The notes under the pieces: generated by a model
Told to the model about the DNA's origin: nothing
Databases searched by the model: none
Seen by the model: only the letters and a program-made list of their open reading frames with translations
Assembly (NCBI GenBank): GCA_036986255.1
Contig: BTRF01000001.1
Span: 1-41,421 of the forward strand
Length of the DNA: 41,421 bases
Reading direction: 5' to 3'
From: Patescibacteria group bacterium
GTDB lineage: Bacteria > Patescibacteriota > WWE3 > 9FT-COMBO-53-11
Made by a program: the position numbers and the translations under genes
Shown: in pieces, positions 12,935 to 39,807 of the stretch
Numbering within the stretch: position 1 is the first letter of the stretch
Layout: each line of letters starts with the position of its first letter

Positions 12935-15004
12935 ATGTCGAGGAATCAGCTATCAGTAATTGGTCTCTTTTTACCTTTTTTGGTTTTCTCAACGGTCCTC
13001 GAACGCTTCAACGTTTTTATACCCCAGCTTGATTTTTCTCTTAAACTTTCCCTGATTCTTCTTCCGGTGGTTGGTCTGGTGCTGTTTTTGAAGAGGCGGC
13101 TGGTGTTTAACGCCACTTTTCTCTTCCCGTTTTTGGCTTTAGCGGTTTTGGCGCAGATAGTATCGATTCCCTTCTCGTTCGATCCGTTTCAGAGCTTCCA
13201 AGTTGTCGTCTTTACTCTCCTGATGATCGGTTTTTTCTACTTGATTGTTTGGAGTGTTAGGAGCGCAGAGGTGCTTACCCGGTTGGTCTGGGCCTGGGGA
13301 GCGGGAGCGGTGGCGGTGGCGCTTCTGGGGTTCTGGCAGTTTGGGAGGTTTCTGCTTGGGCAGGACCCGGCCCTGTTTTTCGACCGCTGGGTTTTGGCGA
13401 AGACTCTGCCTGCAGTTACTTTCATTCAAGACTTTTTCGGCCGGACTTTTTTAAGGCCGTCTTCGACTTTCATTGATGTGAATACGTCCGCTTCGTTTGT
13501 GGGAATCTTTATTTTGCTAGGGTCGGCTTGGTTGCTAAGCATGAGAGCAGAGAACAGAGAGCAGAGAACAGAGAGCAGAAAAACTCGTACCTCGTACCTC
13601 ATACTGCTAACCTTCCTGCTAATTTCTTTGGTTTACTTTATTTTGGCCTCTTCTCGAACTGCCGCTTTGGGTTTGGCCGTGGGAGCGGCAACCCTGGCTT
13701 ACCTGCTCCTCCGTGAGAAGATCGGTAAGAAATTATTGGCGGGGGGTTTGGTTCTGCTTCTGGCCGGATTGATTGGGGGAATGGCCTACTTTAGCTCCGT
13801 GGACCCGGCCCGTTCAGGGTCGGCAGTGGCTCGCCTCGATTATGCCCGCGCGGCGGTGGAGATGCTTAAGCGCAGTTCGTGGGCGGGGGTGGGAGCGGGC
13901 AACTTTGAGCCCTACTATACGCAAGTGCTCAAGCCCGGCGCCGAAGCCGGCTACTCCCATTCAATCCTTCTCACTTGGCTGGGGGAGTTGGGAGTTGGGG
14001 GGACCTTTATTAACCTTCTTCTTATCGGGGTAGTGGTGCTTTTTCTCTGGAGAATTTTAAACTTCTTGAAGTCCAATAGTGTATGGTACATCAGGGTTTC
14101 GGGATTGTTGGCCGGTTTTTTGGCCCTCGTTTTTGCCAATGTTTTTCACGCTCATTACGGCTTGGAGTTTACCTGGGTGCTGTTGGGCCTCGCAGTAGCG
14201 GGGTACTATGTGGCTAGGTCAGAGATCAGAGATCAGAGATCAGGGAACAGAGGCCAGGGATTGGGAAGGGTTGATGTGCTGGGCGTCCAGGTGGATAACA
14301 TCACGATGGGGGAGGCGGTAGATAAGGTTAAGGAGATTTTTAGATCGGGAAAGAAGGGCTTTGTTGCTACCCCTAACCCGGAGATGGTGATGCAGTCCAG
14401 GGGGGACGAGGAGTTTAGGAAAATTCTAAACGCCGCAGATATATCCGTTCCGGACGGTGCCGGGCTTATTTGGGCATCGCGGATTTGGGGGACTCCTCTA
14501 AAAGAAAGGGTTACCGGGACCGATCTTTTCTTGGAGCTTTGCGCCGAAGCTTCAAGGCGGGGAGGAAGGGTGCTTTTCTTGGAGGGTCCGGAGGGGCTGA
14601 TGTCCTCTGAAGAAGCGGCCCGGAAGCTTAAGCAGAAATATCCCAAGTTAGACATCGCAGGTACTTTGGTTATCAGCCGCAGAGATGATAAGAAAGCTCT
14701 TTCCGCGATCAAGGAAGCGAGCCGGGGAAGGGATATTGATCTTCTTTTCGTGGCTTACGGCCACGGCAAGCAGGAGCCGTGGATTAAGAGAAACCTTCCC
14801 AAAATTCCCGTGAAAGTTGCAGTAGGCGTTGGCGGGGCCTTGGATTTTGCCGCCGGGGTTCAGATTCGTGCTCCAAGGGTGGTCAGGGCTTTGGGTCTTG
14901 AGTGGTTTTACAGGCTGGCCCGCCAGCCTAACAGGTTAAAGCGGCAGGTTTATGCACTGGTTCCATTTATCTTTCTCACCTTCCGTAAATCGCTTAAGCG
15001 CTAG
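12935..15004 (+). CDS. O-antigen ligase (Wzy_C-like, polytopic membrane) fused to a WecB/TagA/CpsF (GT26) glycosyltransferase domain
   Basis: The track ORF starts at a TTG at 12902, which lies inside a repeat tract; the ATG at 12935 (MSRNQLSVIG) is the more plausible start. Multiple TM helices and an SRTAALGL-type ligase core. The C-terminal ~250 aa (VDVLGVQVDNITMGEAV...GLEWFYRLARQPNRLKRQ) match the GT26 family end to end. Confidence 0.75.
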   Translation: MSRNQLSVIGLFLPFLVFSTVLERFNVFIPQLDFSLKLSLILLPVVGLVLFLKRRLVFNATFLFPFLALAVLAQIVSIPFSFDPFQSFQVVVFTLLMIGFFYLIVWSVRSAEVLTRLVWAWGAGAVAVALLGFWQFGRFLLGQDPALFFDRWVLAKTLPAVTFIQDFFGRTFLRPSSTFIDVNTSASFVGIFILLGSAWLLSMRAENREQRTESRKTRTSYLILLTFLLISLVYFILASSRTAALGLAVGAATLAYLLLREKIGKKLLAGGLVLLLAGLIGGMAYFSSVDPARSGSAVARLDYARAAVEMLKRSSWAGVGAGNFEPYYTQVLKPGAEAGYSHSILLTWLGELGVGGTFINLLLIGVVVLFLWRILNFLKSNSVWYIRVSGLLAGFLALVFANVFHAHYGLEFTWVLLGLAVAGYYVARSEIRDQRSGNRGQGLGRVDVLGVQVDNITMGEAVDKVKEIFRSGKKGFVATPNPEMVMQSRGDEEFRKILNAADISVPDGAGLIWASRIWGTPLKERVTGTDLFLELCAEASRRGGRVLFLEGPEGLMSSEEAARKLKQKYPKLDIAGTLVISRRDDKKALSAIKEASRGRDIDLLFVAYGHGKQEPWIKRNLPKIPVKVAVGVGGALDFAAGVQIRAPRVVRALGLEWFYRLARQPNRLKRQVYALVPFIFLTFRKSLKR
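13543..13612 (+). repeat. Heptamer-periodic tract inside the ligase ORF (gagagca gagaaca gagagca gagaaca gagagca gaaaaac tcgtacc tcgtacc tcatact gctaacc)
   Basis: Ten in-phase 7-mers. They are translated as the charged loop RAENREQRTESRKTRTSY between TM helices. Confidence 0.75.
14212..14267 (+). repeat. Heptamer-periodic tract inside the ORF at the ligase/GT26 junction (ggctagg tcagaga x3 tcaggga acagagg ccaggga ttgggaa)
   Basis: Eight in-phase 7-mers translated as ARSEIRDQRSGNRGQGLG. They share a 17-mer with the intergenic tract at 27958-27974. Confidence 0.75.
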
Positions 15005-15009
15005 CGCGC

Positions 15010-15087
15010 ATGTAAAATATAGAATGTAAAATTTTGAAAGTTGGGGATTCCGGTGGATTTTACTTTATACCTTTTACTTTTTACTTG
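15010..15087. terminator. Imperfect inverted repeat between convergent genes (candidate bidirectional terminator built from heptamer units)
   Basis: The left arm atgtaaaatatagaatgtaaaat (about 15010-15032) is largely complementary to the right arm attttactttataccttttacttt (about 15057-15080). Both arms have 7-nt periodicity. The right arm overlaps the last codons of glgP. Confidence 0.35.
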
Positions 15088-19934: not shown

Positions 19935-20021
19935 CGAATAGTCGAGTGCGAAGCTACAAAGAATTAAAAGTTTGGCAGAAAGCCGTCGGCAGGGCGTAAA
20001 AGTTTCTGATTCTATTGACGC

Positions 20022-20057
20022 TACTAGTTTTACTGCTTTTACTGGTGTTACTATAAC
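20022..20057. repeat. Nonamer-periodic tract (tactagttt tactgcttt tactggtgt tactataac) in the leader of the second GH57 gene
   Basis: TACT recurs every 9 nt at 20022, 20031, 20040 and 20049. The tract ends 6 nt before the ATG at 20064. Confidence 0.6.
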
Positions 20058-21410: not shown

Positions 21411-21458
21411 GCACTAAACTACGAAAAGTATGAAGCAGGTTCGAATTTCTAATTTCTA

Positions 21459-22385
21459 ATGACTACTTACCAAAAAGTCTTCCAACCGGTTTTTGATAAG
21501 TTGGGCCTGACGATTACTAGAGCCTTCCGCGAAGGTCCCCGCTTTTATGTGGCCGGGGGGGAGTATCAAGGGGAGAAGGTCGTTTTTAAGGCTGATTTGG
21601 AGTCGGAGAAGAAGCCCTTGACCAAGGCCTGGTTCAAGCTGCGCCGCGAAGCGGCCTTTCTGGAGTCGGGCGACCTGAAGCATATCCCCAATTTTTACGC
21701 CAAGGGGACTCACCGGGGGTTTTTCTGGCTTCTGCAGGAGCGGGTTCCGGGGGAGTCTCAAGAGCAGGGGGAGAGCACCTTCCTGATCAAAGACTCTTTC
21801 TTCACTCCCAAAAATCTCGAGTACTGTTTGGAGTTTTTAACTACCCTGCACAATCTTCCCCAGACCAACCAGAACCCCAAGTTCAAGGAATTTGAGGAAA
21901 AGTTTGCTAAGAAGTACACCTTGGCCGACTACGTTGCTCTTATTGTTTCTGACAGGGGGGAATTAGTTGGGAGGAAGTTGACGGGAAGAATTGATGAGCT
22001 GATTGGGCGGAGCCATAAGTTTTTTGACGCTCAGCAGACGGTAATTACCCACCACGAGTTCTTTGCTCCCCATATTTTTGTGAACGGGGGGAAGCTTAAT
22101 GTGATTGATTGGGAGAATGTGGGTTGGGGGAATCCGGCCTATGATTTTATGGAGCTTTGGATCAGGAGTTTTGCCCACCCTGAATTTCAGGCCGAGCTGC
22201 TTGAGCGCTTCCGGGCTGTTCATCAGGATAGAGAGGTTTTTGATCGGTTATTTGCGCTAGAGACAGTTTTTCAAGGCCTGGGAAATCTGAAGTACTTCAA
22301 GGCCCCTGAGGTGGCGGAAGAAAGAGCCGTCGCCGGCGAGGTTACGGCATTCTTGCTCAAGCGCATTGAGCAGGCAGTGAAATGA
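21459..22385 (+). CDS. APH/choline-kinase-fold phosphotransferase-like protein with a non-canonical catalytic loop
   Basis: 308-aa ORF. The segment VITHHEFFAPHIF...NVIDWENVGWGNPAYDF aligns with the HxDxxxxN ... IDWE ... YD pattern of aminoglycoside/sugar kinases, but it has Glu in place of the catalytic Asp and His in place of Asn. Confidence 0.6.
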   Translation: MTTYQKVFQPVFDKLGLTITRAFREGPRFYVAGGEYQGEKVVFKADLESEKKPLTKAWFKLRREAAFLESGDLKHIPNFYAKGTHRGFFWLLQERVPGESQEQGESTFLIKDSFFTPKNLEYCLEFLTTLHNLPQTNQNPKFKEFEEKFAKKYTLADYVALIVSDRGELVGRKLTGRIDELIGRSHKFFDAQQTVITHHEFFAPHIFVNGGKLNVIDWENVGWGNPAYDFMELWIRSFAHPEFQAELLERFRAVHQDREVFDRLFALETVFQGLGNLKYFKAPEVAEERAVAGEVTAFLLKRIEQAVK

Positions 22386-23554
22386 TTAACACTGATCTGC
22401 ACCCCTTTCACTTTCGTAGCTCCCCTCCCTTAGGAGGAGATTTGGATGCCGCCTTTAACCCCCGCGAGATTGTGGGTTGGGTTGATCGTTTTGGGATCTT
22501 TGACCGCTTTGTGCTGGGAACCCATCCCCCCGAGTTTTTCCGAATCAGCACCAAACTTCCTCCCGAAGAATATCTGGATGCGGTGGGGGCTGATATTGAC
22601 AGCGTCCGCAAATTTTTTAGGGGGAGGGTATTTAGAGGACTCGAGTGTGATCTTCTTATTCAGCCGGGAGGGAAGGTGGACTTCAGTCCCGGAGAAACGC
22701 TTTTGAAGTGCTTTGATCCTGAGATTGCTCTGATCTCTTTTCACTTCCACAGCTCCTTGACTTATGCAGGGAGGTTTGAGATGGAAGTCGCCGACCTTGT
22801 GACGGCTTTTAAGTGGGCGATTAACCACGGAAAATTTTCCGTCCTGGCCCATCCGTTTGATGCCCTGGAGAGGGTTTTGGAGGGAGATCCTTCCGGTTTT
22901 GAGGAGATTGCCAACTTAGCACGGGAGAAGCGGGTCGCTTTTGAGATCAACGCCGATAAGGGATTTTGGGAGAAGCCCTTGCTAAAGCTGATTGAAAATA
23001 GAAATATCTTCTCTTTTGGGGGAGATCTGCACGCCCTTTCCTACTGGCTTAAGCGGGATTGGGCAGGGTTAGAAGTTTCCGAAGAAGACCGCCCGCTGGT
23101 GGATAAAGTTTTGGGGCTGACTCGGGAGGCCGCCGACAAGGAGAAGGAGTACTGGAGGGTCCTTGACCCTATGTTTTGGCACCTCCCCCATTTAAGCCCC
23201 CGACTTTTGAGATTTAAGAGGCAAGCGGTTTGGCTGTACCGCCGCTGTATTAGCGATCGGGCTTGTTTTGAGCGGAATCTCTCGCGGCTAGTTGCTCGCT
23301 TTAGCCCGCAGGATGGAGAATTGGTGGAGCTTTACATAAGAGATCTTGGAGAGGTCTACCGCAAGTGGGGCGGAGGGCTAAAGAAGAGGGATCGGATGAG
23401 GGCCGAGAAGTATTTTTTAAAAGCTTCGCTGACGCCCTCCGAATTTGAGGTTTATGAGCGGTGGCTGGTTAGAGCGTTTGATTTTGGGCTTCAAAGCAAG
23501 CGGCTTATAAATGCTTGGGATACTCCCAAATTGGAAAAGTTCCTCCACCGCTGA
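22382..23554 (+). CDS. PHP-family (polymerase/histidinol-phosphatase-like) phosphoesterase
   Basis: 390-aa ORF with an ATGA overlap onto the upstream kinase-like gene. PHP-type His/Asp motifs are present: TDLHPFH, ISFHFH, VLAHP, FEINA and GGDLHA. Confidence 0.6.
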   Translation: MINTDLHPFHFRSSPPLGGDLDAAFNPREIVGWVDRFGIFDRFVLGTHPPEFFRISTKLPPEEYLDAVGADIDSVRKFFRGRVFRGLECDLLIQPGGKVDFSPGETLLKCFDPEIALISFHFHSSLTYAGRFEMEVADLVTAFKWAINHGKFSVLAHPFDALERVLEGDPSGFEEIANLAREKRVAFEINADKGFWEKPLLKLIENRNIFSFGGDLHALSYWLKRDWAGLEVSEEDRPLVDKVLGLTREAADKEKEYWRVLDPMFWHLPHLSPRLLRFKRQAVWLYRRCISDRACFERNLSRLVARFSPQDGELVELYIRDLGEVYRKWGGGLKKRDRMRAEKYFLKASLTPSEFEVYERWLVRAFDFGLQSKRLINAWDTPKLEKFLHR

Positions 23555-24072
23555 TTGCTCTAGCTTATAAGAAGTGGGTAGCACTTGTGACTTGCATAGC
23601 TCTTTTTGTCTTTGGTGGGAATTTAGCAGTTTTCCTCATCTTTCTCTTCTTAGTTTTGTCATGGGGATGGTTGGAAGAAAGTTTTGAGGTTTGGAAGTAG
23701 GAATTGGTGGGATACTGATGGTTTTTGCTAGGTTAAGTCCAGATTTTAAGGAGGGTATCTAGTTATACTCTTTTGAAATGGGTGATCTATTTCACAGGTT
23801 TAGACTTACGTAAGGAGTAAATATATTGTCCATATGTCGAGAGAGTCCCGAGCTCTCGTCCGCTGACGGTGGGAAAAGGTGTCTCCTTTTATCTTCGAAC
23901 TCGTGCTGGAGTGCTTTTTTGCTCCTAGCAGAGTTGAATTCAGCTTGGTTGGAACCTGCTTGCGGAGCACTGGAAATAGGATTAATTTGAGGGTGGGCGA
24001 ATCTCGGCCTTCACTATCGTCTATAGTAACAAGTGGTTGGCACGCAATCAAGCTTCGCACCTGTGTGTCTAG

Positions 24073-24205
24073 TCAGAGATCAGAGATTAGGGATCGGAGG
24101 TCAGAAGTTAGAAGTATGAAGTTAGAGGTATGAGGTTAGAGATCACTGGTTGCTGTCCACTACTCACTATCCCCTAATCCCTAATCCCTAGCACCTGAAA
24201 CCTAA
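24073..24205 (+). repeat. Longest heptamer-periodic tract (19 in-phase units, 133 nt)
   Basis: Units in order: tcagaga tcagaga ttaggga tcggagg tcagaag ttagaag tatgaag ttagagg tatgagg ttagaga tcactgg ttgctgt ccactac tcactat cccctaa tccctaa tccctag cacctga aacctaa. The first half is purine-rich and the second half pyrimidine-rich. Confidence 0.85.
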
Positions 24206-24335
24206 CCACGCGCCTTCGTGTCTACTATTGTTGCTCCTTCGCGTTGCACTCAGGAGCACAAGTAGCCTCCTCAGCTAGAGCTTGCGGGTGGCTACTTGAC
24301 ATCACTTGTGTTTCCCACTAGAATCTTAAGTGGTT

Positions 24336-24362
24336 GACTCTTTGCGGAAAGAGTCTTTTTTG
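24336..24362 (+). terminator. Rho-independent terminator upstream of secE
   Basis: Stem GACTCTTT (24336-24343), loop GCGG, stem AAAGAGTC (24348-24355), then a run of six T. It ends a plus-strand transcript coming from the ORF-poor gap. A second hairpin, GGGCTTA-ctct-TAAGCCC, lies at 24365-24382. Confidence 0.7.
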
Positions 24363-24396
24363 TTGGGCTTACTCTTAAGCCCTCGAATGCCTACTA

Positions 24397-24579
24397 ATGA
24401 AAATTATTTCATTCTTGCAAGAAGCTTGGGCAGAGCTCAAGAAGGTGGTTTGGCCCTCACGCCGGCAGACGGTTCGTTTAACCGCAGCCGTCTTGGCAAT
24501 TACTTTCGGAGTGGCGGGATTCCTTGCTGCTGTGGATTATCTGTTTAGTCAGATGTTGAGTCTGCTGGTCGAAAAGTAA
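24397..24579 (+). CDS. secE: Preprotein translocase subunit SecE
   Basis: 60 aa, with AWAELKKVVWPSRRQTVRLTAAVL followed by a single TM helix. The position upstream of nusG is canonical. Confidence 0.85.
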   Translation: MKIISFLQEAWAELKKVVWPSRRQTVRLTAAVLAITFGVAGFLAAVDYLFSQMLSLLVEK

Positions 24580-25262: not shown

Positions 25263-25360
25263 TTACAGGTTTCAAGGCTCAAGTAGGCAGTGGACGGACC
25301 ACGGCTGACAGTTGAGGATGCTAAAATCTGTGAACTGCATACTGGGAACTGTTAACTACC
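25263..25360 (+). repeat. Heptamer-periodic tract forming the rplK leader (14 units)
   Basis: Units in order: ttacagg tttcaag gctcaag taggcag tggacgg accacgg ctgacag ttgagga tgctaaa atctgtg aactgca tactggg aactgtt aactacc. The ATG at 25361 follows directly. There is no Shine-Dalgarno-like purine run. Confidence 0.75.
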
Positions 25361-25786: not shown

Positions 25787-25793
25787 CTTAGCG

Positions 25794-25867
25794 TACGGCA
25801 AACGGCTAACCGCTAACGGCTTAAACTGTTAGCTGTATGCTGTAGGCTGTTAGCTAGCGAAGCTATG
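25794..25867 (+). repeat. Heptamer-periodic tract forming the rplA leader (about 11 units)
   Basis: Units in order: tacggca aacggct aaccgct aacggct taaactg ttagctg tatgctg taggctg ttagcta gcgaagc tATGggt. The tract runs into the start codon at 25865. Confidence 0.75.
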
Positions 25868-26692: not shown

Positions 26693-26795
26693 AGGTCAGC
26701 TGATAGAACGGCTTCCGATGAATCGGAAGCCTAGCAATCATCCGATGGTTGATTGTTAATAGCTAATAGGCTATAGTTAACAGAAGATAGCTCTG

Positions 26796-26904
26796 TCCGA
26801 AGACAGTGAGGGTCCGTTGAGGACTTAATCAGACTCACCGAGGAGAAGTAACCTAAAGGGTTGGGAAATTTGATGAGACCTCGGTGAGCACCCGAGGTTT
26901 TTTT
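26796..26904 (+). promoter_or_regulatory. L10-leader-like attenuator upstream of rplJ
   Basis: CTCACCGAGG (26834-26843) pairs with CCTCGGTGAG (26879-26888). The latter segment overlaps an alternative hairpin, CCTCGG (26879-26884)/CCGAGG (26892-26897), which is followed by seven T (26898-26904) ending right at the rplJ ATG. This gives an antiterminator/terminator layout. Confidence 0.6.
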
Positions 26905-27432
26905 ATGGTTACGAAAGAAAAAGCTAAACAAGTTGAAAACTTGATTGATGAAATTGCCCGATCCGAGGCGGTTGTGTTCTCTGATTACGCCGGGTTTACG
27001 GTTACCGAAATGACGGAGCTCCGAAGAAAGCTCTCTGAGTTGGGAGCGGTCCTTCAGGTGACTAAAAATTCACTTCTTAAGCTTGCCCTGGAGAAGGGGG
27101 GGCTTCCTTTGCCCAGGGAGTTGACGGGTCCTACCGCGACTCTTTTTTCTGGAGAAGCGGATCCTATCGAGAGTATTAAGACTTTGGCTTCCTTTATCAA
27201 GGAGAAGGGAAAGGGGGAGGTCAAGTCCGGTTTCTTTGAGAAGGCTTTTGTAGCGGCGGAGGAAGTTGGGGCACTAGCGTCTCTACCTGGAAAAAAGGTT
27301 TTGCAGGCTCAACTGGTTAACCGGCTAGCGGCCCCCATATATAATCTAGCGTATGTTTTGGGTAACGGTCCTCAAAAGTTGGTATCTGTTTTAGATCAGA
27401 TTACAAAACAGAGGGGAGGTGGAACAGAGTAA
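26905..27432 (+). CDS. rplJ: 50S ribosomal protein L10
   Basis: The track ORF starts at a GTG at 26884, which lies inside the terminator hairpin. The ATG at 26905 ([17 protein letters not shown]) is the plausible start. Synteny is rplA-rplJ-rplL. Confidence 0.9.
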
Positions 27433-27913: not shown

Positions 27914-27938
27914 ATAGCAAATCAACCCTTAGGGTTGA
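27914..27938. repeat. REP-like element, copy 3 (exact 25-mer)
   Basis: atagcaaatcaacccttagggttga, 16 nt downstream of the rplL stop. It may double as a terminator hairpin. Confidence 0.85.
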
Positions 27939-28001
27939 GGTGCTTGTTTTGCTCCTCCTGTTCCCTGATCTCTGGTCTCTAACTAGCTACTGGCCTGCTA
28001 C
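27939..28001. repeat. Heptamer-periodic tract adjacent to REP copy 3 (9 units)
   Basis: Units in order: ggtgctt gttttgc tcctcct gttccct gatctct ggtctct aactagc tactggc ctgctac. The reverse complement of 27958-27974 is identical to 14234-14250. Confidence 0.75.
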
Positions 28002-32800: not shown

Positions 32801-33316
32801 GTTGGGTTTATAGGGCAGATCAGGACTAAGGTTACAGGAAACATAAAGTCCGGGGACTTAATAACCGCCTCAAACATAGCTGGTGTTGGTACAAAAGCAG
32901 AAGGCAGAGGATCAGTTGTTGGAATCGCTCTTGAATCTCACAGTGGGGCAGCGGTTTCCAAGATCAAGGTTTTTGTCAATCCTGGCTGGTGGGATCCGGG
33001 AACCGAGATTGTCAGTGATGGTACGGCCGGTGCCGATATGAACATACCGGACCAGCTTAAAGTTTTGGGTGTTGAGGCCGAAGTAGGAATCTTCCAAACC
33101 CTAAGGGTTAAGGTAGAGGCTGTTTTCTTAACCCTTAGGGTTAAAGTGGCCGAGATCGCTTCTGCAGTGGTAGATACGCTCAAGGTTGGAAACCTAACGA
33201 TTGGGGAGGCAGACGCCCCGGCTGGAATTACCATTTACGACCGAGTAACCGGAGAACCCTACTGCGTCTCTATCTCCGACGGCGATTGGCTCAAAGAACT
33301 GGGCGAGTGTGAATAG
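29840..33316 (+). CDS. Large (1158 aa) N-terminally membrane-anchored surface fibre protein, paralogous in modules to the giant protein
   Basis: TM helix IITLVLTFLLIGLAFKYY. Also APLTVSSTGLVTNLNSDFLDGQHGSYY, two VGIGT..P..KL.V motifs, and the C-terminal module DYAEYV..VVGVVS..GDLITAS..WWDP, which is homologous to the giant protein's C-terminus. Confidence 0.8.
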   Translation: MPNPALEGPITIPSNDQLRRSFRLATPSKFRRSAPKIITLVLTFLLIGLAFKYYPIVGQVLGVQTQGGSAVTLDRILDDSFNLSLAGYVEGKRLKSFATSGAPLTVSSTGLVTNLNSDFLDGQHGSYYLGATTLDSLDSTSFLRSDVSDSYTSGTLTFNSGTTLDVNGDFTIADTVINLDGGATTIQTVSGSLSLKGSGLEFEGTSASSDVEFFRDLANGGQGNNGLYLFSYNTGVGGTRSGRLWVTTTGEFRIDPSVSNRLSLDTYAESYLTAFESSAAGENREFRIYGWNTALAAPAYGLFQYDDTNDRFRLDVSTGDLELDDDVYITGLLDVVGTLTANGRVGVGVDPEYALHVRTEDYTGTQTLMRSALVDLFLYADDATPDTNSYNTIQGRARYYGGVGDTAYAIRALRGSVWNTGAGTITEAVGSFTTIRNGSTGTIERAIAFYTPGVANSSTGTIQNAYGMLSGNVDNTGGGTIVNNYGLYIEDPTCVGCTNTWSIYSEAGDNFFGGSVGIGTATPDGKLHVLSADSGAAPSTFADDFIVEGTGSMGMTLAANSSGSGNIYWANEATNQAASISYSHSSDSLSISNASGTHIVMGASELVINEFSYDNDFRIESDTSQYMFFLDGGNNEILIDASNTLTTADGTLHVSTASAGATSANAVADDLVVENSAEGGITILTPDTNAGSLTFGSSGGNLKGRIRYDHSAEAMEFYTNTLVRLYLSESTGFVINAGSTDFDTRIEGDTEPYLLFADAGSDRVGIGTNIPGARLEVKGATNDATAYALDARNSDDRSLFFARNDGTLEIGNALLTGPTTSVTIYPKLYSMEPSFFTNGTFLGLATGTWGYLSVVEDYGAEGIARIVDTGITDDAGVSVLRLGLGTITTGVATRFVTFYAAATTESDGTGVGRIRLNNGGVAYETGGADYAEYVTVSGSVSQGDIISIPSSAGKKALVGERVVGVVSDTAGFVGNAKSESPGPNQAIVGFIGQIRTKVTGNIKSGDLITASNIAGVGTKAEGRGSVVGIALESHSGAAVSKIKVFVNPGWWDPGTEIVSDGTAGADMNIPDQLKVLGVEAEVGIFQTLRVKVEAVFLTLRVKVAEIASAVVDTLKVGNLTIGEADAPAGITIYDRVTGEPYCVSISDGDWLKELGECE
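33097..33142. repeat. REPIN-like inverted doublet of the REP core inside CDS 29840-33316
   Basis: aaccctaagggttaag (33097-33112) and cttaacccttagggtt (33127-33142) are perfect reverse complements (16 nt) separated by 14 nt. They are translated as QTLRVKVEAVFLTLRVKV. Confidence 0.8.
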
Positions 33317-36185: not shown

Positions 36186-36573
36186 ATGCCTGTTGTAGTA
36201 CTTAATTACGATCCCGCAAGGGTACGGCGAGAAATGGCAGTCTACATTGCCCAGGCTCTGCCCAGGTGGGTAGCTGGTGCTCTTTCGGTCGAGGAGGCCG
36301 ATAGGCCGACTCACAAAAGATGACATTGAAGTTTGGGTGAGGGAGCGTCAGCCCTCCGACGTTGGCAGCTATCAGATTGAAGTCGTGGTTTGGGCTAAGC
36401 ACTACCGCGCTCGCGAAGAACAGATTGACGAGGCAGCGGCGCTCATTGACTCATATATCAGACTGGTGGTGGAGAAGTATATCGCACAGCTGGTGGACGT
36501 GGTCGTTCCCTTTCCGATCAAGAGTTTTGTTTACATCCTGCTATGCCCGGCCGGCTTTGCTGAGAGCAGCTGA
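36186..36573 (+). pseudogene. Small hypothetical gene split over two frames at an A4 run (frameshifted gene, sequencing error or two small ORFs)
   Basis: The ATG at 36186 has a strong SD and opens a 45-codon ORF ending in TGA at 36321-36323. The +1 frame is open from 36277 to the TGA at 36571-36573. Removing one A from the aaaa run at 36315-36318 joins them as ...EEADRPTHK-DDIEVWVRERQ.... Confidence 0.4.
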
Positions 36574-36589
36574 CCTTGGCAGGCATATG

Positions 36590-36626
36590 ACCCTCCTTTG
36601 AGATTCAGAGGAGGGTTTCTTTTTTG
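36590..36626 (+). terminator. Rho-independent terminator
   Basis: Stem ACCCTCCT (36590-36597) pairs with AGGAGGGT (36609-36616), followed by TTCTTTTTT. Confidence 0.75.
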
Positions 36627-36850: not shown

Positions 36851-36927
36851 ACTACTGAACTATTAACTACGGACTAACTGCCAATAACTAATGACTATTG
36901 CCTACCGGCTATTCACCTACTAATAAC
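36851..36927. repeat. Heptamer-periodic tract downstream of fmt (11 units)
   Basis: Units in order: actactg aactatt aactacg gactaac tgccaat aactaat gactatt gcctacc ggctatt cacctac taataac. The CTA/ACTA core stays in phase throughout. Confidence 0.7.
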
Positions 36928-38380: not shown

Positions 38381-39807
38381 AGCAGCGACTCCGGATCGAC
38401 CTCAATCTTCCATTCCGGAGGGATCACCTTAGACAGTTTAGCAAGAGTTTTCTCAAGTTGCGCTCCTTTTTCTTCACTGCGCTTAGGACAGGTTTTGATC
38501 TTAACGGCAAGATTGAGCTGGATTTTTCTGGGGGTGGGCAGGTACGGAGGGTAGGGTGGAGAAACGTTAATAGTGGGGAGTTTAGAGTTCAAGGTTGAAA
38601 GTTTCTCATGAAGTTTTTCTGCCTCCAGGTTGGTTTTGGCGGTGCTTCTGGAGGTGAAGGTGAGCTTGACGAGGGTACTGAAAGGGGGATAGGAGAGTTC
38701 GCGGCGGGTTTTAAGTTCGCATTTGTAGAAGTTGGTCAGGTCCCCGCCGTCTAAACTATCAAAAAGAATATGGCGGGGAAAGGAGGTTTGGAGGTAGACT
38801 TTTCTTTTTGTGATTTGATCTAGCTTTCGGACGGTCCAAACTATCTTTTCGTGGGCGCGGAAGTCGGGGAGGTTGAAGATGGTGTCCACATCTGCCCAGA
38901 CGATGTGATCTGCTTCTTTTCCGGGGAGAGAGAAGAGCTTAGGCCCCCAAACCTCTACGAAGTTTTTACCCACACCGCTTTTAAGCAACTCATCTTTAAT
39001 TCCCTCCTGTAATTCTTTGGAACTAACATAGACTATTGTATATTTACATTCTTTAAGGAGGGTTTTTAGCTTTTGAGAAACGAGGGAAAAGTTGCCGGCG
39101 GCCTTCTCGCGGGCGAGGTCAGTTATCCCAACCCTTCGGGTTGAGGATTTCGAACCCGAAGGGTTTAATTTTTCATTATAGATGTCTTCAATGCGCGGGG
39201 ATAGGTAGCGCAGCTCCAACTCTAATCCCTCGATCTCCGCCCGCTTTTGGGCGACGTCCTTGGCATGGTAGTAAGGCGATCGCTCGTCTTTGTAGTTCCA
39301 ATTCTCCGGCTCTTCAATGATGATTTTTTTTAGGTTCGGCAGATTGGCAAAGACTGCCGACCGCGACCCCACCATCGCCTTTTGAGTTTGAGATCTTGAG
39401 TTTTGAAGAGCCCGGGCGCGGATTTTTACTTGGGAGGCATAGGGGACGAGGAGCAGAGTGGTGATCTCGCCTTTAGGGGCGGTGGCTGCTCTGGCGCCTT
39501 TTTTCTCGATTTGGCTTTTGAGGCAATCCAGAGGAGGAGCCAAGTAGTGTTGAGTCATCCATTGGGATAGGGCTACTTGGGAGGCGGTAAAGGTGCGTGC
39601 TTTTACTTTCTGTATTTCCTTAGTAGGAAAAGGGGGCTTTTTCGAAGTAACCCTCCAGATATACCCCTCCACAACCCGTTTTCCAAAAGGGATAACGACC
39701 TGAGCACCTTCCAGGGCGTCGGTTTCAAGACTCTTAGGCACCCGATAAGTGAAGAGCTTTTTGGCGGGATCCTGATAGGTATCGACCGCAATTTCCGCAT
39801 AAAGCAT
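38377..39807 (-). CDS. PriA-like primosomal protein N' homologue lacking helicase and zinc-finger motifs
   Basis: The ATG at 39807 (MLYAEIAVDTYQDP...) is preferred to the track start at 39969, which would overlap dprA. The N-terminus (VVIPFGKRVVEGYIWRV) and C-terminus (RRELSYPPFSTLVKL) match PriA, and priA-def-fmt synteny holds. There is no GxGKT motif, DEEH is replaced by EEPE, and there are no CxxC pairs. Confidence 0.7.
   Translation of the reverse strand: MLYAEIAVDTYQDPAKKLFTYRVPKSLETDALEGAQVVIPFGKRVVEGYIWRVTSKKPPFPTKEIQKVKARTFTASQVALSQWMTQHYLAPPLDCLKSQIEKKGARAATAPKGEITTLLLVPYASQVKIRARALQNSRSQTQKAMVGSRSAVFANLPNLKKIIIEEPENWNYKDERSPYYHAKDVAQKRAEIEGLELELRYLSPRIEDIYNEKLNPSGSKSSTRRVGITDLAREKAAGNFSLVSQKLKTLLKECKYTIVYVSSKELQEGIKDELLKSGVGKNFVEVWGPKLFSLPGKEADHIVWADVDTIFNLPDFRAHEKIVWTVRKLDQITKRKVYLQTSFPRHILFDSLDGGDLTNFYKCELKTRRELSYPPFSTLVKLTFTSRSTAKTNLEAEKLHEKLSTLNSKLPTINVSPPYPPYLPTPRKIQLNLAVKIKTCPKRSEEKGAQLEKTLAKLSKVIPPEWKIEVDPESLL
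39130..39165. repeat. Inverted doublet of a REP-core variant inside the priA-like CDS
   Basis: aacccttcgggtt (39130-39142) and aacccgaagggtt (39153-39165) are reverse complements separated by 10 nt. They have the same AACCC/GGGTT arms as the REP core. They are translated (minus strand) within KLNPSGSKSSTRRVG. Confidence 0.7.

What the first reader, a model, noticed from the sequence alone, without database searches (positions are those of the whole stretch)
24073..24205. Degenerate heptanucleotide-periodic tract of 133 nt, the flagship of a tract family that fills most intergenic spacers
Nineteen consecutive 7-mers stay in phase: tcagaga tcagaga ttaggga tcggagg tcagaag ttagaag tatgaag ttagagg tatgagg ttagaga tcactgg ttgctgt ccactac tcactat cccctaa tccctaa tccctag cacctga aacctaa. 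The units are related but not identical, and they switch from purine-rich to pyrimidine-rich midway.

Tracts with the same 7-nt period but different words occur at:
- 11721-11755
- 12871-12919
- 13543-13612
- 14212-14267
- 15011-15087
- 21444-21464
- 25263-25360
- 25794-25867
- 26740-26795
- 27939-28001
- 36851-36927

There is also one 9-nt-period variant at 20022-20057.

A 7-nt period fits neither codon structure nor the DNA helical repeat. Classical microsatellites are not this degenerate. I know of no described element class that matches this pattern. Possible explanations are slipped-strand filler DNA that has since diverged, protein or RNA binding arrays, or unstructured leader sequences.
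Basis: seen in the sequence. Interest (0 to 1): 0.7.

Follow-up and report, generated by a model that had tools for sequence, protein, structure and literature searches.

The report
Heptamer-repeat hairpin spacers in a CPR genome
The 133-base tract is a real array of degenerate 7-base repeats of the kind long known in cyanobacteria, here found in a candidate-division WWE3 bacterium, and in relatives the same arrays form the hairpin arms around a small gene otherwise known from intervening sequences in ribosomal RNA.

Summary
24073-24205 is the strongest of 15 period-7 segments in the window, against about 1 expected from shuffles. "Fills most spacers" is overstated: tracts are about 11% of intergenic bases and touch about 10 of 25 spacers, and two lie inside an ORF.

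The window is from a roughly 51%-GC candidate division WWE3 (CPR) bacterium. Its relatives share the trait, with different words. Orthologous spacers are 2-9 nt in some strains and 76-410 nt of tract in others, even at 99.3% flank identity, so the tracts are dispensable. Arrays change by 7-nt or 14-nt steps.

Many are dyads: an array followed by its reverse complement, folding into rod-like hairpins of 5-bp helices with 2x2 loops.

[quoted passage not shown] The window holds one decayed cassette (19945-20057).

Best reading: these are STRR-like arrays that serve as arms or remnants of intervening-sequence-like hairpin cassettes. They evolve by slippage and are probably selfish or nearly neutral.

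The class is already described (cyanobacterial STRR, the Nostoc trnL P6b stem, Coxiella intervening-sequence heptamers). This is a new member in a new phylum. I did not find the cassette link reported.

The parts
24073..24205 (.). Flagship degenerate heptanucleotide array of 19 units. About 10 units of T[CT]AGA[AG][AG], 4 of TCACTNN, 5 of [TC]CCCTAA.
   Evidence: Lag-7 identity 0.65. Top lag-7 segment, score 44.8. TRF period 7, and period 14 at 24104-24141 with 91% matches.
24075..24092 (.). Left arm of the flagship dyad (AGAGATCAGAGATTAGGG)
   Evidence: Inverted repeat I1, 18 nt, 83% complementary to 24172-24189. TTAGGGA is the exact reverse complement of TCCCTAA, in the same unit phase.
24172..24189 (.). 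Right arm of the flagship dyad (CCCTAATCCCTAATCCCT)
   Evidence: TRF perfect CCCTAAT x2.7. The whole tract folds as one unbranched hairpin of 48-49 pairs, reached by 0.7-1% of shuffles, although its energy equals that of shuffles.
11722..11752 (.). Direct heptamer array (TACTGTA GACTGTG AACTGTT TACTGTC AACTAAT), immediately 3' of the PEGA-domain gene on the minus strand
   Evidence: Lag-7 score 12.6. Sequence.
12868..12916 (.). Heptamer array in the divergent spacer between the PEGA gene and the Wzy_C+WecG gene. 14-nt higher-order repeat.
   Evidence: Score 19.5. TRF period 14, 90% matches. Plus strand folds at -16.4 against -2.2 kcal/mol for the minus strand.
13543..13604 (+). Heptamer array inside the Wzy_C+WecG ORF. 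It encodes an extra 11-residue loop (…RAENREQRTESRKTRTS…) that is absent from the L084 homologue.
   Evidence: Score 28.5. TRF period 14, 100% matches. Translation, Pfam, alignment.
14216..14259 (+). Heptamer array (TCAGAGA x3 …) encoding the linker between the Wzy_C and WecG domains
   Evidence: Score 23.3. The same linker is encoded by heptamer arrays with other words in L084 (1661-1697) and L002 (501-540).
15010..15086 (.). Dyad of heptamer arrays (TGTAAAA… / …TTTTACT) filling the convergent spacer between the Wzy_C+WecG gene and the phosphorylase gene
   Evidence: Two lag-7 segments, scores 10.3 and 14.1. Within-region reverse-complement 6-mer sharing 0.25.
19945..19980 (+). Remnant of the 5' end of a 23S_rRNA_IVP (four-helix-bundle) gene: VRSYKELKVWQKAVGRA*
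   Evidence: 94% identical over 36 nt to the start of the L005 PF05635-type ORF, blastn E 3e-9. The next best hit is the start of the Nostoc punctiforme gene. Translation. A weak profile-HMM hit first pointed to it.
20022..20057 (.). It is the right arm of the decayed cassette and runs up to the GH57b start codon.
   Evidence: Lag-9 identity 0.67. TRF period 9. Same layout as the 9-nt arms of the L004 cassette.
21440..21472 (.). Direct heptamer array (AATTTCT…) between GH57b and the phosphotransferase gene, overlapping that gene's start codon
   Evidence: Score 14.5. No Shine-Dalgarno-like motif upstream.
25263..25360 (.). Degenerate array and dyad (…ACAG… / …AACTGTT AACTACC) in the nusG-rplK spacer, ending at the rplK start codon
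   Evidence: Lag-7 identity 0.51. Score 9.6 for 25263-25315. The orthologous spacer is 2 nt in L004 and L095.
25788..25857 (+). Periodic hairpin filling the rplK-rplA spacer: 5-bp helices separated by 2x2 internal loops
   Evidence: MFE -33.6 against -24 kcal/mol in shuffles, z about -3. The antisense strand is weaker. Lag-7 score 24.5. The same spacer holds analogous hairpins of unrelated sequence in L006, L099, L096, L091, L089 and L164.
26744..26776 (.). Heptamer array just upstream of the L10 leader (Rfam RF00557 at 26779-26912)
   Evidence: Score 12.8. Rfam.
27957..27980 (.). Short heptamer array (GATCTCT GGTCTCT, the reverse complement of the AGAGATC word) in the convergent spacer after rplL
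   Evidence: Score 11.1. Similar to the flagship in reverse orientation.
36856..36911 (.). Direct heptamer array (AACTATT AACTACG GACTAAC …), 3' of fmt
   Evidence: Score 14.2. Very little predicted structure on the plus strand, -4.5 kcal/mol for 86 nt.
24296..24362 (+). Context only. secE promoter-like site TTGACA-17-TAGAAT (24296-24324), then a hairpin plus T-run (stem-loop 24336-24355 followed by TTTTTTG to 24362), conserved in relatives. It places the flagship upstream of the secE transcription unit.
   Evidence: 11 of 12 consensus matches. Conserved block in L002-L005 by blastn, and the same motif read by eye in the printed L006 spacer.

Best explanation
The tract is a short tandemly repeated heptanucleotide array of the STRR (long simple-sequence repeat) type, in a candidate division WWE3 (CPR) genome.

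Shown:
- Such arrays are a trait of this roughly 51%-GC WWE3 subclade.
- They sit mainly in spacers, and in tolerant protein loops or linkers.
- They differ in word between lineages.
- They change by whole 7-nt or 14-nt units.
- They are present or absent between strains whose flanks are 99.3% identical, so they are dispensable and turn over fast.
- A substantial subset, including the flagship, are dyads: an array of word W followed by an array of its reverse complement. As single strands these fold into rod-like hairpins with helices of about 5 bp and 2x2 mismatch loops, which is what produces the 'degenerate period 7'.
[quoted passage not shown] The arrays are on both sides in 11 and are mostly inverted.
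- One spacer of the window still holds the first 12 codons of such a gene, next to a 9-nt array.

Inferred:
- The window's tracts are ORF-less arms, remnants or relatives of cassettes like rRNA intervening sequences, in which the ORF sits in the loop and the repeat arrays form the stem.
- They expand and contract by replication slippage and are selfish or nearly neutral.
- When transcribed they probably act as intercistronic or 3' hairpins, being possible RNase III substrates or mRNA-end stabilisers. This rests on analogy with rRNA intervening sequences, where RNase III cuts in the heptamer-bearing stem.
- The flagship is an old, decayed dyad sitting between the upstream gene and the secE promoter.
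For: Reality and specificity.

Taxon: (nearest genomes are candidate division WWE3, NusG 83-85% identical).

Clade trait: 62 lag-7 segments against 6-12 for lags 5, 8, 10, 11 and 13 in the clade loci. Other taxa are near background.

Dispensability and turnover:
- The nusG-rplK spacer is 2 nt in L004 and L095, against 144 nt in the window and 410 nt in L003.
- The rplK-rplA spacer is 8-9 nt in L002, L003 and L004, against 78-98 nt of tract in the window, L006, L099, L089 and L091.
- L096 carries a 76-nt dyad, and L004 a 495-nt cassette, that strains with 99.2-99.9% identical flanks lack.

Slippage:
- 14-nt higher-order repeats with 91-100% matches.
- The right arm of the homologous nusG-rplK cassette is exactly 7 nt shorter in L089 than in L164.
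- In-frame arrays in a protein loop and linker, with different words in three lineages.

Hairpins:
- rplK-rplA spacers of seven lineages, unrelated in sequence, all fold into one periodic hairpin (z -2.7 to -5.5).
- The flagship forms a single unbranched hairpin of 48-49 pairs, reached by at most 1% of shuffles.

Cassette link:
- PF05635 ORFs flanked by arrays in L004, L089/L003 and L005.
- The same in L164, L165, L166, L169 and L172.
- The same on plasmids of Anabaena, Nostoc, Calothrix, Picosynechococcus and Gemmatirosa.
- In 50 kb of a Nostoc punctiforme plasmid, 12 lag-7 segments occur, several as inverted pairs (by reading the words), and one pair brackets the only such gene in that stretch.
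- The cassette arms and the ORF-less dyads of one genome share word families: CTTAGG in L004 and L096, CTTAGAG in L089.
- In-window remnant at 19945-19980.

Literature:
- The Coxiella intervening sequence has tandem GACAGAT heptamers in its stem, 2 or 3 copies by strain, with the RNase III cut at the first repeat (PMC4990558).
- The Nostoc trnL P6b stem is built of the 7-nt motifs TDNGATT or NNTGAGT, with 7- and 14-nt indels (PMC4476775).
Against: - The window has no intact PF05635 gene and only one remnant. The link of the flagship itself to such cassettes rests on shared architecture, not on homology.
- The flagship and most window tracts are no more stable than shuffled sequence. Several are plain direct arrays with no inverted partner: 11722, 14216, 21440, 36856.
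- Exact reverse-complement 6-mer sharing within tract regions is only modestly enriched: 0.071 against 0.032, and 7 of 50 regions reach 0.15.
- Sense and antisense strands fold about equally well, so RNA-level function is not separated from DNA-level symmetry.
- One cassette (Gemmatirosa) has direct rather than inverted arrays.
- In array-rich genomes, cassettes could simply land in pre-existing arrays.
- No transcription, RNase III or mobility data exist for this organism.
Confidence: 0.55

Rival explanations
1. The tracts are pure mutational filler. Heptanucleotide arrays arise and decay by replication slippage alone, from an intrinsic bias of the replisome towards 7-nt units, and have nothing to do with PF05635 cassettes. 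The cassettes merely insert preferentially into, or are tolerated in, array-filled spacers.
For: - Arrays occur in every kind of spacer and even in protein loops.
- Words are highly diverse.
- 14-nt higher-order repeats and one-unit length differences are present.
- The arrays are dispensable in near-identical strains.
- Most window tracts are not unusually structured.
- Over-representation of heptamer repeats through polymerase slippage is the standing proposal, as summarised in PMC4679880 and PMC4692102.
Against: - Slippage yields direct arrays. It does not explain the recurrent array-plus-inverted-array layout.
- It does not explain why cassette arms and ORF-less dyads in one genome share a word family in both orientations.
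- It does not explain why 14 of 14 PF05635 genes across phyla sit exactly at such arrays, 11 of them between two.
Confidence: 0.25
2. The tracts are cis-regulatory arrays. They would be multivalent binding sites for an RNA- or DNA-binding protein, or standby leaders that let ribosomes start on genes without a Shine-Dalgarno sequence, as proposed for the TAACTGA repeats of Beggiatoaceae and the heptamers upstream of Nostoc recF and recO.
For: - Five tracts run right up to a start codon (20022, 21440, 25263, 25791, 12868), and genes in the window almost all lack Shine-Dalgarno-like motifs.
- One tract begins with a literal TAACTGA.
- The proposals exist in PMC4679880 and in bioRxiv 10.1101/2022.06.06.494920.
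Against: - The flagship lies upstream of the secE promoter.
- Other tracts are in convergent or 3' spacers or inside an ORF.
- There is no common word: 25 classes.
- Near-identical strains do without the tract, with spacers of 1-9 nt before the same ribosomal-protein genes.
- Genes without tracts also lack Shine-Dalgarno motifs.
Confidence: 0.1
3. The dyads are REPIN-like miniature elements mobilised by the REP-associated tyrosine transposase (RAYT)-like gene in the window (10536-11225, minus strand).
For: - A Y1/IS200-like gene is present. Its best NCBIfam hit is REP-associated tyrosine transposase.
- Such enzymes act on DNA hairpins (established knowledge of the IS200/IS605 and RAYT families).
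Against: - That gene is flanked by its own, separate palindrome family, CAACCCTTAGGGTTG. This family has a conserved sequence and no 7-nt period.
- The heptamer tracts have no conserved sequence, which REP families do have.
- The NCBIfam score (46.6 bits) is below the family cut-off of 80.
Confidence: 0.04
4. The tracts are assembly or consensus artefacts.
For: Low-complexity repeats can be mis-assembled. Raw reads were not examined.
Against: - An independently assembled contig is identical over 6281 nt.
- Homologous tract-bearing spacers occur in many unrelated MAGs and metagenome contigs.
- In-frame tracts keep a 700-aa ORF open.
Confidence: 0.01

Closest known systems
Cyanobacterial STRR (short tandemly repeated repetitive heptanucleotides) and heptamer simple-sequence repeats of Nostoc, Xanthomonas and others
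   Same: - 7-nt tandem units, mostly intergenic, at many loci per genome.
- Perfect and heterogeneous units both occur.
- Some arrays are arranged as inverted pairs.
- Length and sequence vary between close relatives (PMC4692102).
- In Nostoc punctiforme pNPUN01 I saw the same inverted-pair layout, with and without a four-helix-bundle gene between the arms.
   Different: - The host is a CPR bacterium (WWE3), not a cyanobacterium or proteobacterium.
- The units are more degenerate: about 65% unit-to-unit identity in the flagship.
- The words are very heterogeneous between loci.
P6b stem-loop of the Nostoc tRNA-Leu(UAA) group I intron
   Same: A hairpin stem built from degenerate heptanucleotide motifs (TDNGATT or NNTGAGT). 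Its length changes by 7- and 14-nt indels on one or both sides of the stem (PMC4476775). This is the same anatomy as the rplK-rplA hairpins here. The NNTGAGT word also appears in the arms of the L165, L166 and L172 cassettes.
   Different: That stem lies inside a self-splicing intron of a tRNA gene. The ones here lie in spacers between protein genes, upstream of a promoter, or in protein linkers.
23S rRNA intervening sequences carrying the S23p / 23S_rRNA_IVP ORF (Coxiella, Leptospira and others)
   Same: - A stem formed by terminal complementary sequences, with the four-helix-bundle ORF in the loop.
- In Coxiella the 5' stem carries tandem heptamers (GACAGAT) whose number differs between strains, and RNase III cuts at the first repeat (PMC4990558).
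- The cassettes in L004, L089, L005, L164-L172 and on cyanobacterial plasmids have this layout.
   Different: - These cassettes are not in rRNA. They sit between protein-coding genes such as nusG-rplK and cas6-cas4.
- The window's own copies lack the ORF, apart from a 36-nt remnant.
- RNase III processing is untested.
TAACTGA direct repeats of marine Beggiatoaceae, cyanobacteria and Bacteroidetes
   Same: Intergenic heptamer direct repeats, often abutting start codons of genes without a Shine-Dalgarno sequence, including ribosomal-protein genes, and sometimes inside ORFs (PMC4679880). Related words (TAACTGA, AACTGTT) occur here.
   Different: There, one exact word in 2-6 copies dominates and inverted arrangements are rare. 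Here there are many words, the units are degenerate, and dyads are frequent.
REP / REPIN elements with RAYT transposases
   Same: Short hairpin-forming extragenic repeats in spacers. A RAYT-like gene is present in the window.
   Different: REP families share a conserved sequence. The window does have such a family (CAACCCTTAGGGTTG), but it is distinct from the heptamer tracts.

Membership tests
STRR / heptanucleotide long simple-sequence repeats | Head-to-tail repeats with a 7-nt unit | tested here: met
   Lag-7 and lag-14 identity 0.65. TRF period 7 and 14. Lag scan: 15 segments against about 1 in shuffles.
STRR / heptanucleotide long simple-sequence repeats | Many dispersed, mostly intergenic loci in one genome | tested here: met
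   15 segments in 41 kb. 11 lie in spacers; 4 lie inside ORFs (two in a loop and a linker, and two borderline segments at 13983-14001 and 38572-38603).
STRR / heptanucleotide long simple-sequence repeats | Runs of identical or near-identical units (classical definition) | tested here: inconclusive
   Only short perfect runs: TCAGAGA x2-3, CCCTAAT x2.7, and a 14-mer x2.6. Overall unit identity is about 65%. Heterogeneous units are nevertheless accepted in PMC4692102.
STRR / heptanucleotide long simple-sequence repeats | Copy-number variation between relatives (slippage) | tested here: met
   One-unit (7-nt) difference between the homologous right arms of L089 and L164. Presence or absence between strains with 99.3% identical flanks. 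Not testable within the window's own population, because only one identical contig was found.
rRNA-type intervening sequence (IVS) cassette | Terminal complementary sequences that form a stem | tested here: inconclusive
   Flagship: 18-nt arms at 83% complementarity and a single unbranched hairpin of 48-49 pairs (at most 1% of shuffles), but energy equal to shuffles. Clearly met for 25788-25857 (z about -3).
rRNA-type intervening sequence (IVS) cassette | ORF for the S23p / 23S_rRNA_IVP protein in the loop | tested here: not met
   No PF05635-like ORF in the window, using a profile HMM with all filters off. The only trace is a 36-nt 5' remnant at 19945-19980. Met in the relatives L004, L089, L003, L005 and L164.
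rRNA-type intervening sequence (IVS) cassette | Located in helix 25 or helix 45 of 23S rRNA | tested here: not met
   No rRNA gene in the window (Rfam). The tracts lie between protein-coding genes.
rRNA-type intervening sequence (IVS) cassette | Excised from the transcript by RNase III | not testable with these tools
   Requires RNA end-mapping or an in vitro cleavage assay.
TAACTGA repeat system (Beggiatoaceae) | Direct repeats of the exact word TAACTGA | tested here: not met
   A single TAACTGA unit at 12871, followed by divergent units. No exactly repeated TAACTGA class among the 25 classes.
REP / REPIN | A conserved palindromic sequence shared by all copies in a genome | tested here: not met
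   Heptamer words differ from tract to tract. The conserved palindrome family in the window is a different sequence.

The most novel reading that the evidence does not exclude
STRR-type heptanucleotide arrays, in CPR bacteria and in cyanobacteria alike, are the stems and footprints of a widespread and so far unrecognised class of selfish hairpin cassettes related to 23S rRNA intervening sequences. The complete form carries the four-helix-bundle (S23p, Avd-like) gene in its loop. It colonises spacers inside operons such as nusG-rplK, rplK-rplA and cas6-cas4. The ORF-less periodic dyads seen in this window are its non-autonomous or decayed copies. The protein may act on the repeat arrays.
Probability: 0.35. 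Interest if true: 0.75.

Novelty: new member of a known kind. Interest (0 to 1): 0.5.

Why it matters
Heptanucleotide arrays (STRR) have been used as cyanobacterial fingerprinting markers for decades, with no accepted origin or function. [quoted passage not shown]

Two results bear on this. The same arrays exist in a CPR lineage. And in every case examined here, across three phyla, the arrays flank that gene's ORF, mostly as inverted arms. Together these give both puzzles a shared and testable handle: do the arrays and the gene form one mobile or RNase III-processed unit?

On the practical side, these tracts explain why spacer lengths in otherwise compact CPR operons vary from 2 to more than 400 nt. 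They are also a source of false ORF calls, such as the 84-aa ORF over the flagship, and of in-frame loop and linker insertions in proteins.

Tried and rejected
- **Structured RNA gene.** I suspected a structured RNA with a heptamer insert, as in RNase P RNA of heterocystous cyanobacteria (from memory). Rfam at gathering threshold over the window, and at E up to 5 over 23500-24450, gave nothing relevant. ARAGORN found only four distant tRNAs.
- **Stable hairpin or terminator at the flagship.** The energy is no better than shuffles on either strand. Only the topology is unusual.
- **Unit-number variation within the species.** Look-ups of SecE, NusG and L11 found a single, identical contig. The metagenome scan found nothing closer than 87% NusG identity.
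- **Homology of the 842-nt spacer to anything.** blastn found only the conserved secE promoter and leader hairpin. tblastx gave only weak hits (E 0.002) to an unrelated locus (L067), which I treated as chance. The small ORFs there look spurious, and Pfam found nothing for the one tested (23879-24133).
- **One common motif or binding word.** There are 25 different exactly repeated classes.
- **Exact reverse-complement 6-mer sharing as a dyad statistic.** It is too strict for helices interrupted every 5 bp, and the enrichment was only modest.
- **Strand asymmetry of folding, to separate RNA-level from DNA-level selection.** The results were mixed.
- **Shine-Dalgarno loss as a tract-specific feature.** Nearly all genes in the window lack such motifs.
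- **Intact PF05635 gene in the window.** None found.
- **Prior reports.** Literature searches for heptamer tracts in WWE3 or CPR, or for a link between STRR and the four-helix-bundle gene, found nothing beyond the Coxiella paper. The library holds open-access papers only.
Full report
**Observation.** Its self-identity is 0.65 at lags 7 and 14, against 0.20-0.28 at the other lags from 1 to 15. Tandem Repeats Finder calls period-7 and period-14 arrays there, including a 14-mer with 91% matches and a perfect CCCTAAT run.

I scanned the whole window with a log-odds score on self-matches at each lag. Lag 7 gave 15 segments (697 nt) and lag 14 gave 13. Dinucleotide shuffles gave about 1. Lags that are multiples of neither 3 nor 7 gave 0-3. 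Multiples of 3 reflect coding periodicity. The scan returned exactly 24073-24205 as the best lag-7 segment (score 44.8).

Intergenic DNA as a whole has lag-7 identity 0.290, against 0.256 in shuffles (z = 5.4). Coding DNA shows none.

The title overstates coverage. Tracts are roughly 11% of the bases between genes and touch about 10 of 25 spacers. Two listed tracts are not intergenic at all.

A Logan assembly contig from run DRR500112 is identical to the window over 6281 nt, including five tracts.

**Context.** The tract lies in an 842-nt gap between a 390-aa gene of unknown function and secE-nusG-rplK-rplA-rplJ-rplL. A near-consensus promoter-like site (TTGACA-17-TAGAAT, 24296-24324) is followed by a hairpin with a T-run (24336-24362). 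This block is conserved just upstream of secE in relatives that otherwise share nothing with the gap. The flagship is therefore upstream of the secE transcription unit, not in its leader. No Rfam family, tRNA or tmRNA overlaps the gap, and its small ORFs look spurious.

**Organism and relatives.** NusG places the window in a roughly 51%-GC subclade of candidate division WWE3 (CPR/Patescibacteria). The nearest genomes have NusG 83-85% identical, and the metagenome contigs reach 87%. Gene order glgA-GH57-GH57-APH-(hyp)-secE-nusG-rplKAJL is conserved.

In the loci of this subclade I counted 62 lag-7 segments, against 6-12 for each of lags 5, 8, 10, 11 and 13. AT-rich WWE3 and unrelated taxa are at background. 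The trait belongs to the lineage, but the words differ. There are 25 classes of exactly repeated heptamer, and only one is shared by two tracts.

**Turnover.** Orthologous spacers differ enormously.
- nusG-rplK is 2 nt in L004 and L095, 144 nt in the window and 410 nt in L003.
- rplK-rplA is 8-9 nt in L002, L003 and L004, but 78-98 nt of tract in the window, L006, L099, L089 and L091.
- L004 and L096 are 99.2-99.3% identical in their flanks. Yet L096 has a 76-nt periodic dyad between rplK and rplA where L004 and L094 have only TAA-A-ATG. L004 has a 495-nt insert after rplL that L096 and L094 lack.

The tracts are therefore dispensable and recently gained or lost.

Homologous arrays differ by whole units. 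The right arm of the nusG-rplK element is exactly 7 nt shorter in L089 than in L164. Perfect or near-perfect 14-nt super-repeats occur in three window tracts.

Two window tracts are in frame inside a conserved Wzy_C+WecG fusion ORF. One adds an 11-residue loop that L084 lacks. The other encodes the inter-domain linker, and that linker is also encoded by heptamer arrays of different words in L084 and L002. This pattern is what a genome-wide mutational process filtered by selection would give.

**Anatomy.** The purine-to-pyrimidine switch reflects inverted symmetry. TTAGGGA is the reverse complement of TCCCTAA in the same phase, and the arms 24075-24092 and 24172-24189 are 83% complementary.

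The same layout, an array followed by its inverted array, recurs in the window (15010-15086, 25263-25360, 25791-25864) and across relatives.

The rplK-rplA spacers of seven lineages are unrelated in sequence. Each folds into one long hairpin of 5-bp helices separated by 2x2 loops (period 7) or 6-bp helices with 3-nt loops (period 9). Their z-scores run from -2.7 to -5.5. This explains why the period is 7 and why two positions per unit are free to vary.

The flagship is a weak case. Its energy equals that of shuffles. It does form a single unbranched hairpin of 48-49 pairs, which at most 1% of shuffles do.

Not all tracts are dyads. Several are plain direct arrays, and an exact 6-mer statistic shows only a two-fold enrichment.

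**The cassette link.** The 495-nt strain-specific insert of L004 has three parts: a 9-nt-period array, an ORF of the 23S_rRNA_IVP family (PF05635, E 2e-33), and the inverted array. The 76-nt ORF-less dyad of L096 uses the same CTTAGG word family.

The 410-nt nusG-rplK spacer of L003, L089 and L090 holds another PF05635 ORF between CTTAGAG and CTCTAAG arrays. Neighbouring ORF-less spacers of L089 use the same word in both orientations. L005 has a third, between glgA and GH57a.

Among 161 loci (1.77 Mb), such ORFs occur only in this subclade.

I then looked at homologues elsewhere:
- five further contigs, two of them again between nusG and rplK;
- six plasmid loci, from Anabaena, Nostoc, Calothrix, Picosynechococcus and Gemmatirosa.

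In all 14 cassettes, 7-, 8- or 9-nt arrays sit at the ORF ends. In 11 they sit on both sides, usually inverted, and often overlap the last codons.

In the first 50 kb of Nostoc punctiforme pNPUN01 there are 12 lag-7 segments. By reading their words, several form inverted pairs. One pair brackets the only such gene in that stretch.

The window itself holds one decayed cassette. Bases 19945-19980 are 94% identical to the first 36 nt of the L005 ORF (E 3e-9).

**Comparison with the literature.** Degenerate or tandem heptanucleotide arrays are a described class.
- STRR and heptamer simple-sequence repeats in Nostoc and Xanthomonas include heterogeneous units, inverted pairs and variation between relatives (PMC4692102).
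- TAACTGA repeats precede start codons in Beggiatoaceae (PMC4679880).
- The P6b stem of the Nostoc trnL intron is built of the 7-nt motifs TDNGATT or NNTGAGT, with 7- and 14-nt indels (PMC4476775).
- The Coxiella 23S rRNA intervening sequence has a stem enclosing the S23p ORF. It carries tandem GACAGAT heptamers whose number varies between strains, and RNase III cuts at the first repeat (PMC4990558).
- CPR rRNA insertions sometimes carry this ORF (PMC11270868).

I found no report of heptamer tracts in WWE3, nor of the general association of this gene with such arrays outside rRNA. The searchable library holds open-access papers only.

**Interpretation.** Shown:
- the arrays are real, clade-specific and dispensable;
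- they change by whole units;
- they are often dyadic;
- they bracket PF05635 genes.

Inferred: the window's tracts are ORF-less arms or remnants of intervening-sequence-like hairpin cassettes. They evolve by slippage and are selfish or nearly neutral. When transcribed they may act as intercistronic hairpins, either as RNase III substrates or as mRNA-end protectors.

Rivals:
- Slippage filler unrelated to the cassettes remains plausible (0.25).
- Regulatory or standby-leader arrays are disfavoured (0.1) by position, word diversity and dispensability.
- REPIN-like elements are disfavoured (0.04) because the RAYT-like gene in the window has its own distinct palindrome family.
- An assembly artefact is very unlikely (0.01).

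**Verdict.** The tracts are a new member of a known kind (STRR-like arrays) in a new phylum, and the link to the intervening-sequence gene family is worth following up.

Noticed in passing
window 10494-10507, 11260-11273, 11672-11685, 27923-27936 (exact); variants at 33096, 33129, 39129; gene at 10536-11225 (minus strand): A second, unrelated repeat family. The palindrome CAACCCTTAGGGTTG has a 7-bp stem and a TTA loop, and two copies share a longer context (CATAGCAAATCAACCCTTAGGGTTGAA). There are 16 strand-matches with up to 2 mismatches, against 0.3 expected. Copies flank on both sides a Y1/IS200-like gene whose best NCBIfam hit is REP-associated tyrosine transposase (E 3e-12, below the family cut-off). 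This looks like a REP/RAYT-type system in a CPR genome.
   Followed up: partly
window 24296-24362; L002-L006 just upstream of secE: A near-consensus promoter-like site (TTGACA-17-TAGAAT) is followed within about 12 nt by the hairpin GACTCTTTGCGGAAAGAGTC and a T-run. The block is conserved across relatives that share nothing else in this spacer. It could be an attenuator or a 5' stabiliser of the secE-nusG operon.
   Followed up: partly
window 12935-15004 (ORF called from 12902): An O-antigen-ligase-like (Wzy_C) domain and a WecG/TagA glycosyltransferase domain are fused in one ORF, and the fusion is conserved in L084 and L002. The linker is encoded by heptamer arrays of different words in all three, and a loop carries an 11-residue tract-encoded insertion.
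   Followed up: yes
window, upstream regions of all genes: Almost no gene has a Shine-Dalgarno-like motif within 20 nt of its start, including the ribosomal-protein genes. Translation initiation seems largely independent of Shine-Dalgarno pairing in this organism.
   Followed up: partly
L029 (labelled Andersenbacteria SZUA-179), 777-2554: Six lag-7 tracts in 4.6 kb around secE-nusG-rplK-rplA of a different CPR lineage. They include ATTGGTC repeats, which are a rotation of the cyanobacterial STRR2 word TTGGTCA (STRR2 word recalled from memory).
   Followed up: no
L173 (Anabaena sp. 90 pANA02), L177 (Picosynechococcus PCC 7003 plasmid): Four-helix-bundle (PF05635) genes are wedged inside CRISPR-Cas operons (cas6-[gene]-cas4 and cas10-[gene]-cmr3), again with short-period arrays on both sides. 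In the plasmid collection, homologues of this gene are mostly in cyanobacteria, chiefly Nostocales, the classical STRR hosts.
   Followed up: partly
L164, L166-L168, L003/L089/L090: nusG-rplK spacer: The nusG-rplK spacer holds a PF05635 cassette in at least three organisms whose cassette proteins are only 55-85% identical. One has a 298-aa NusG. This is either a recurrent insertion site or an old, vertically kept cassette.
   Followed up: partly
window 36187-36573: A small gene after the tRNA cluster appears interrupted. An ATG-started ORF of about 42 codons runs into a stop, and the reading then continues as a 98-aa ORF called from a start codon further on. A strong terminator-like hairpin follows at about 36591-36625. 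This may be a pseudogene or a sequencing error. The 98-aa part has no Pfam hit.
   Followed up: no
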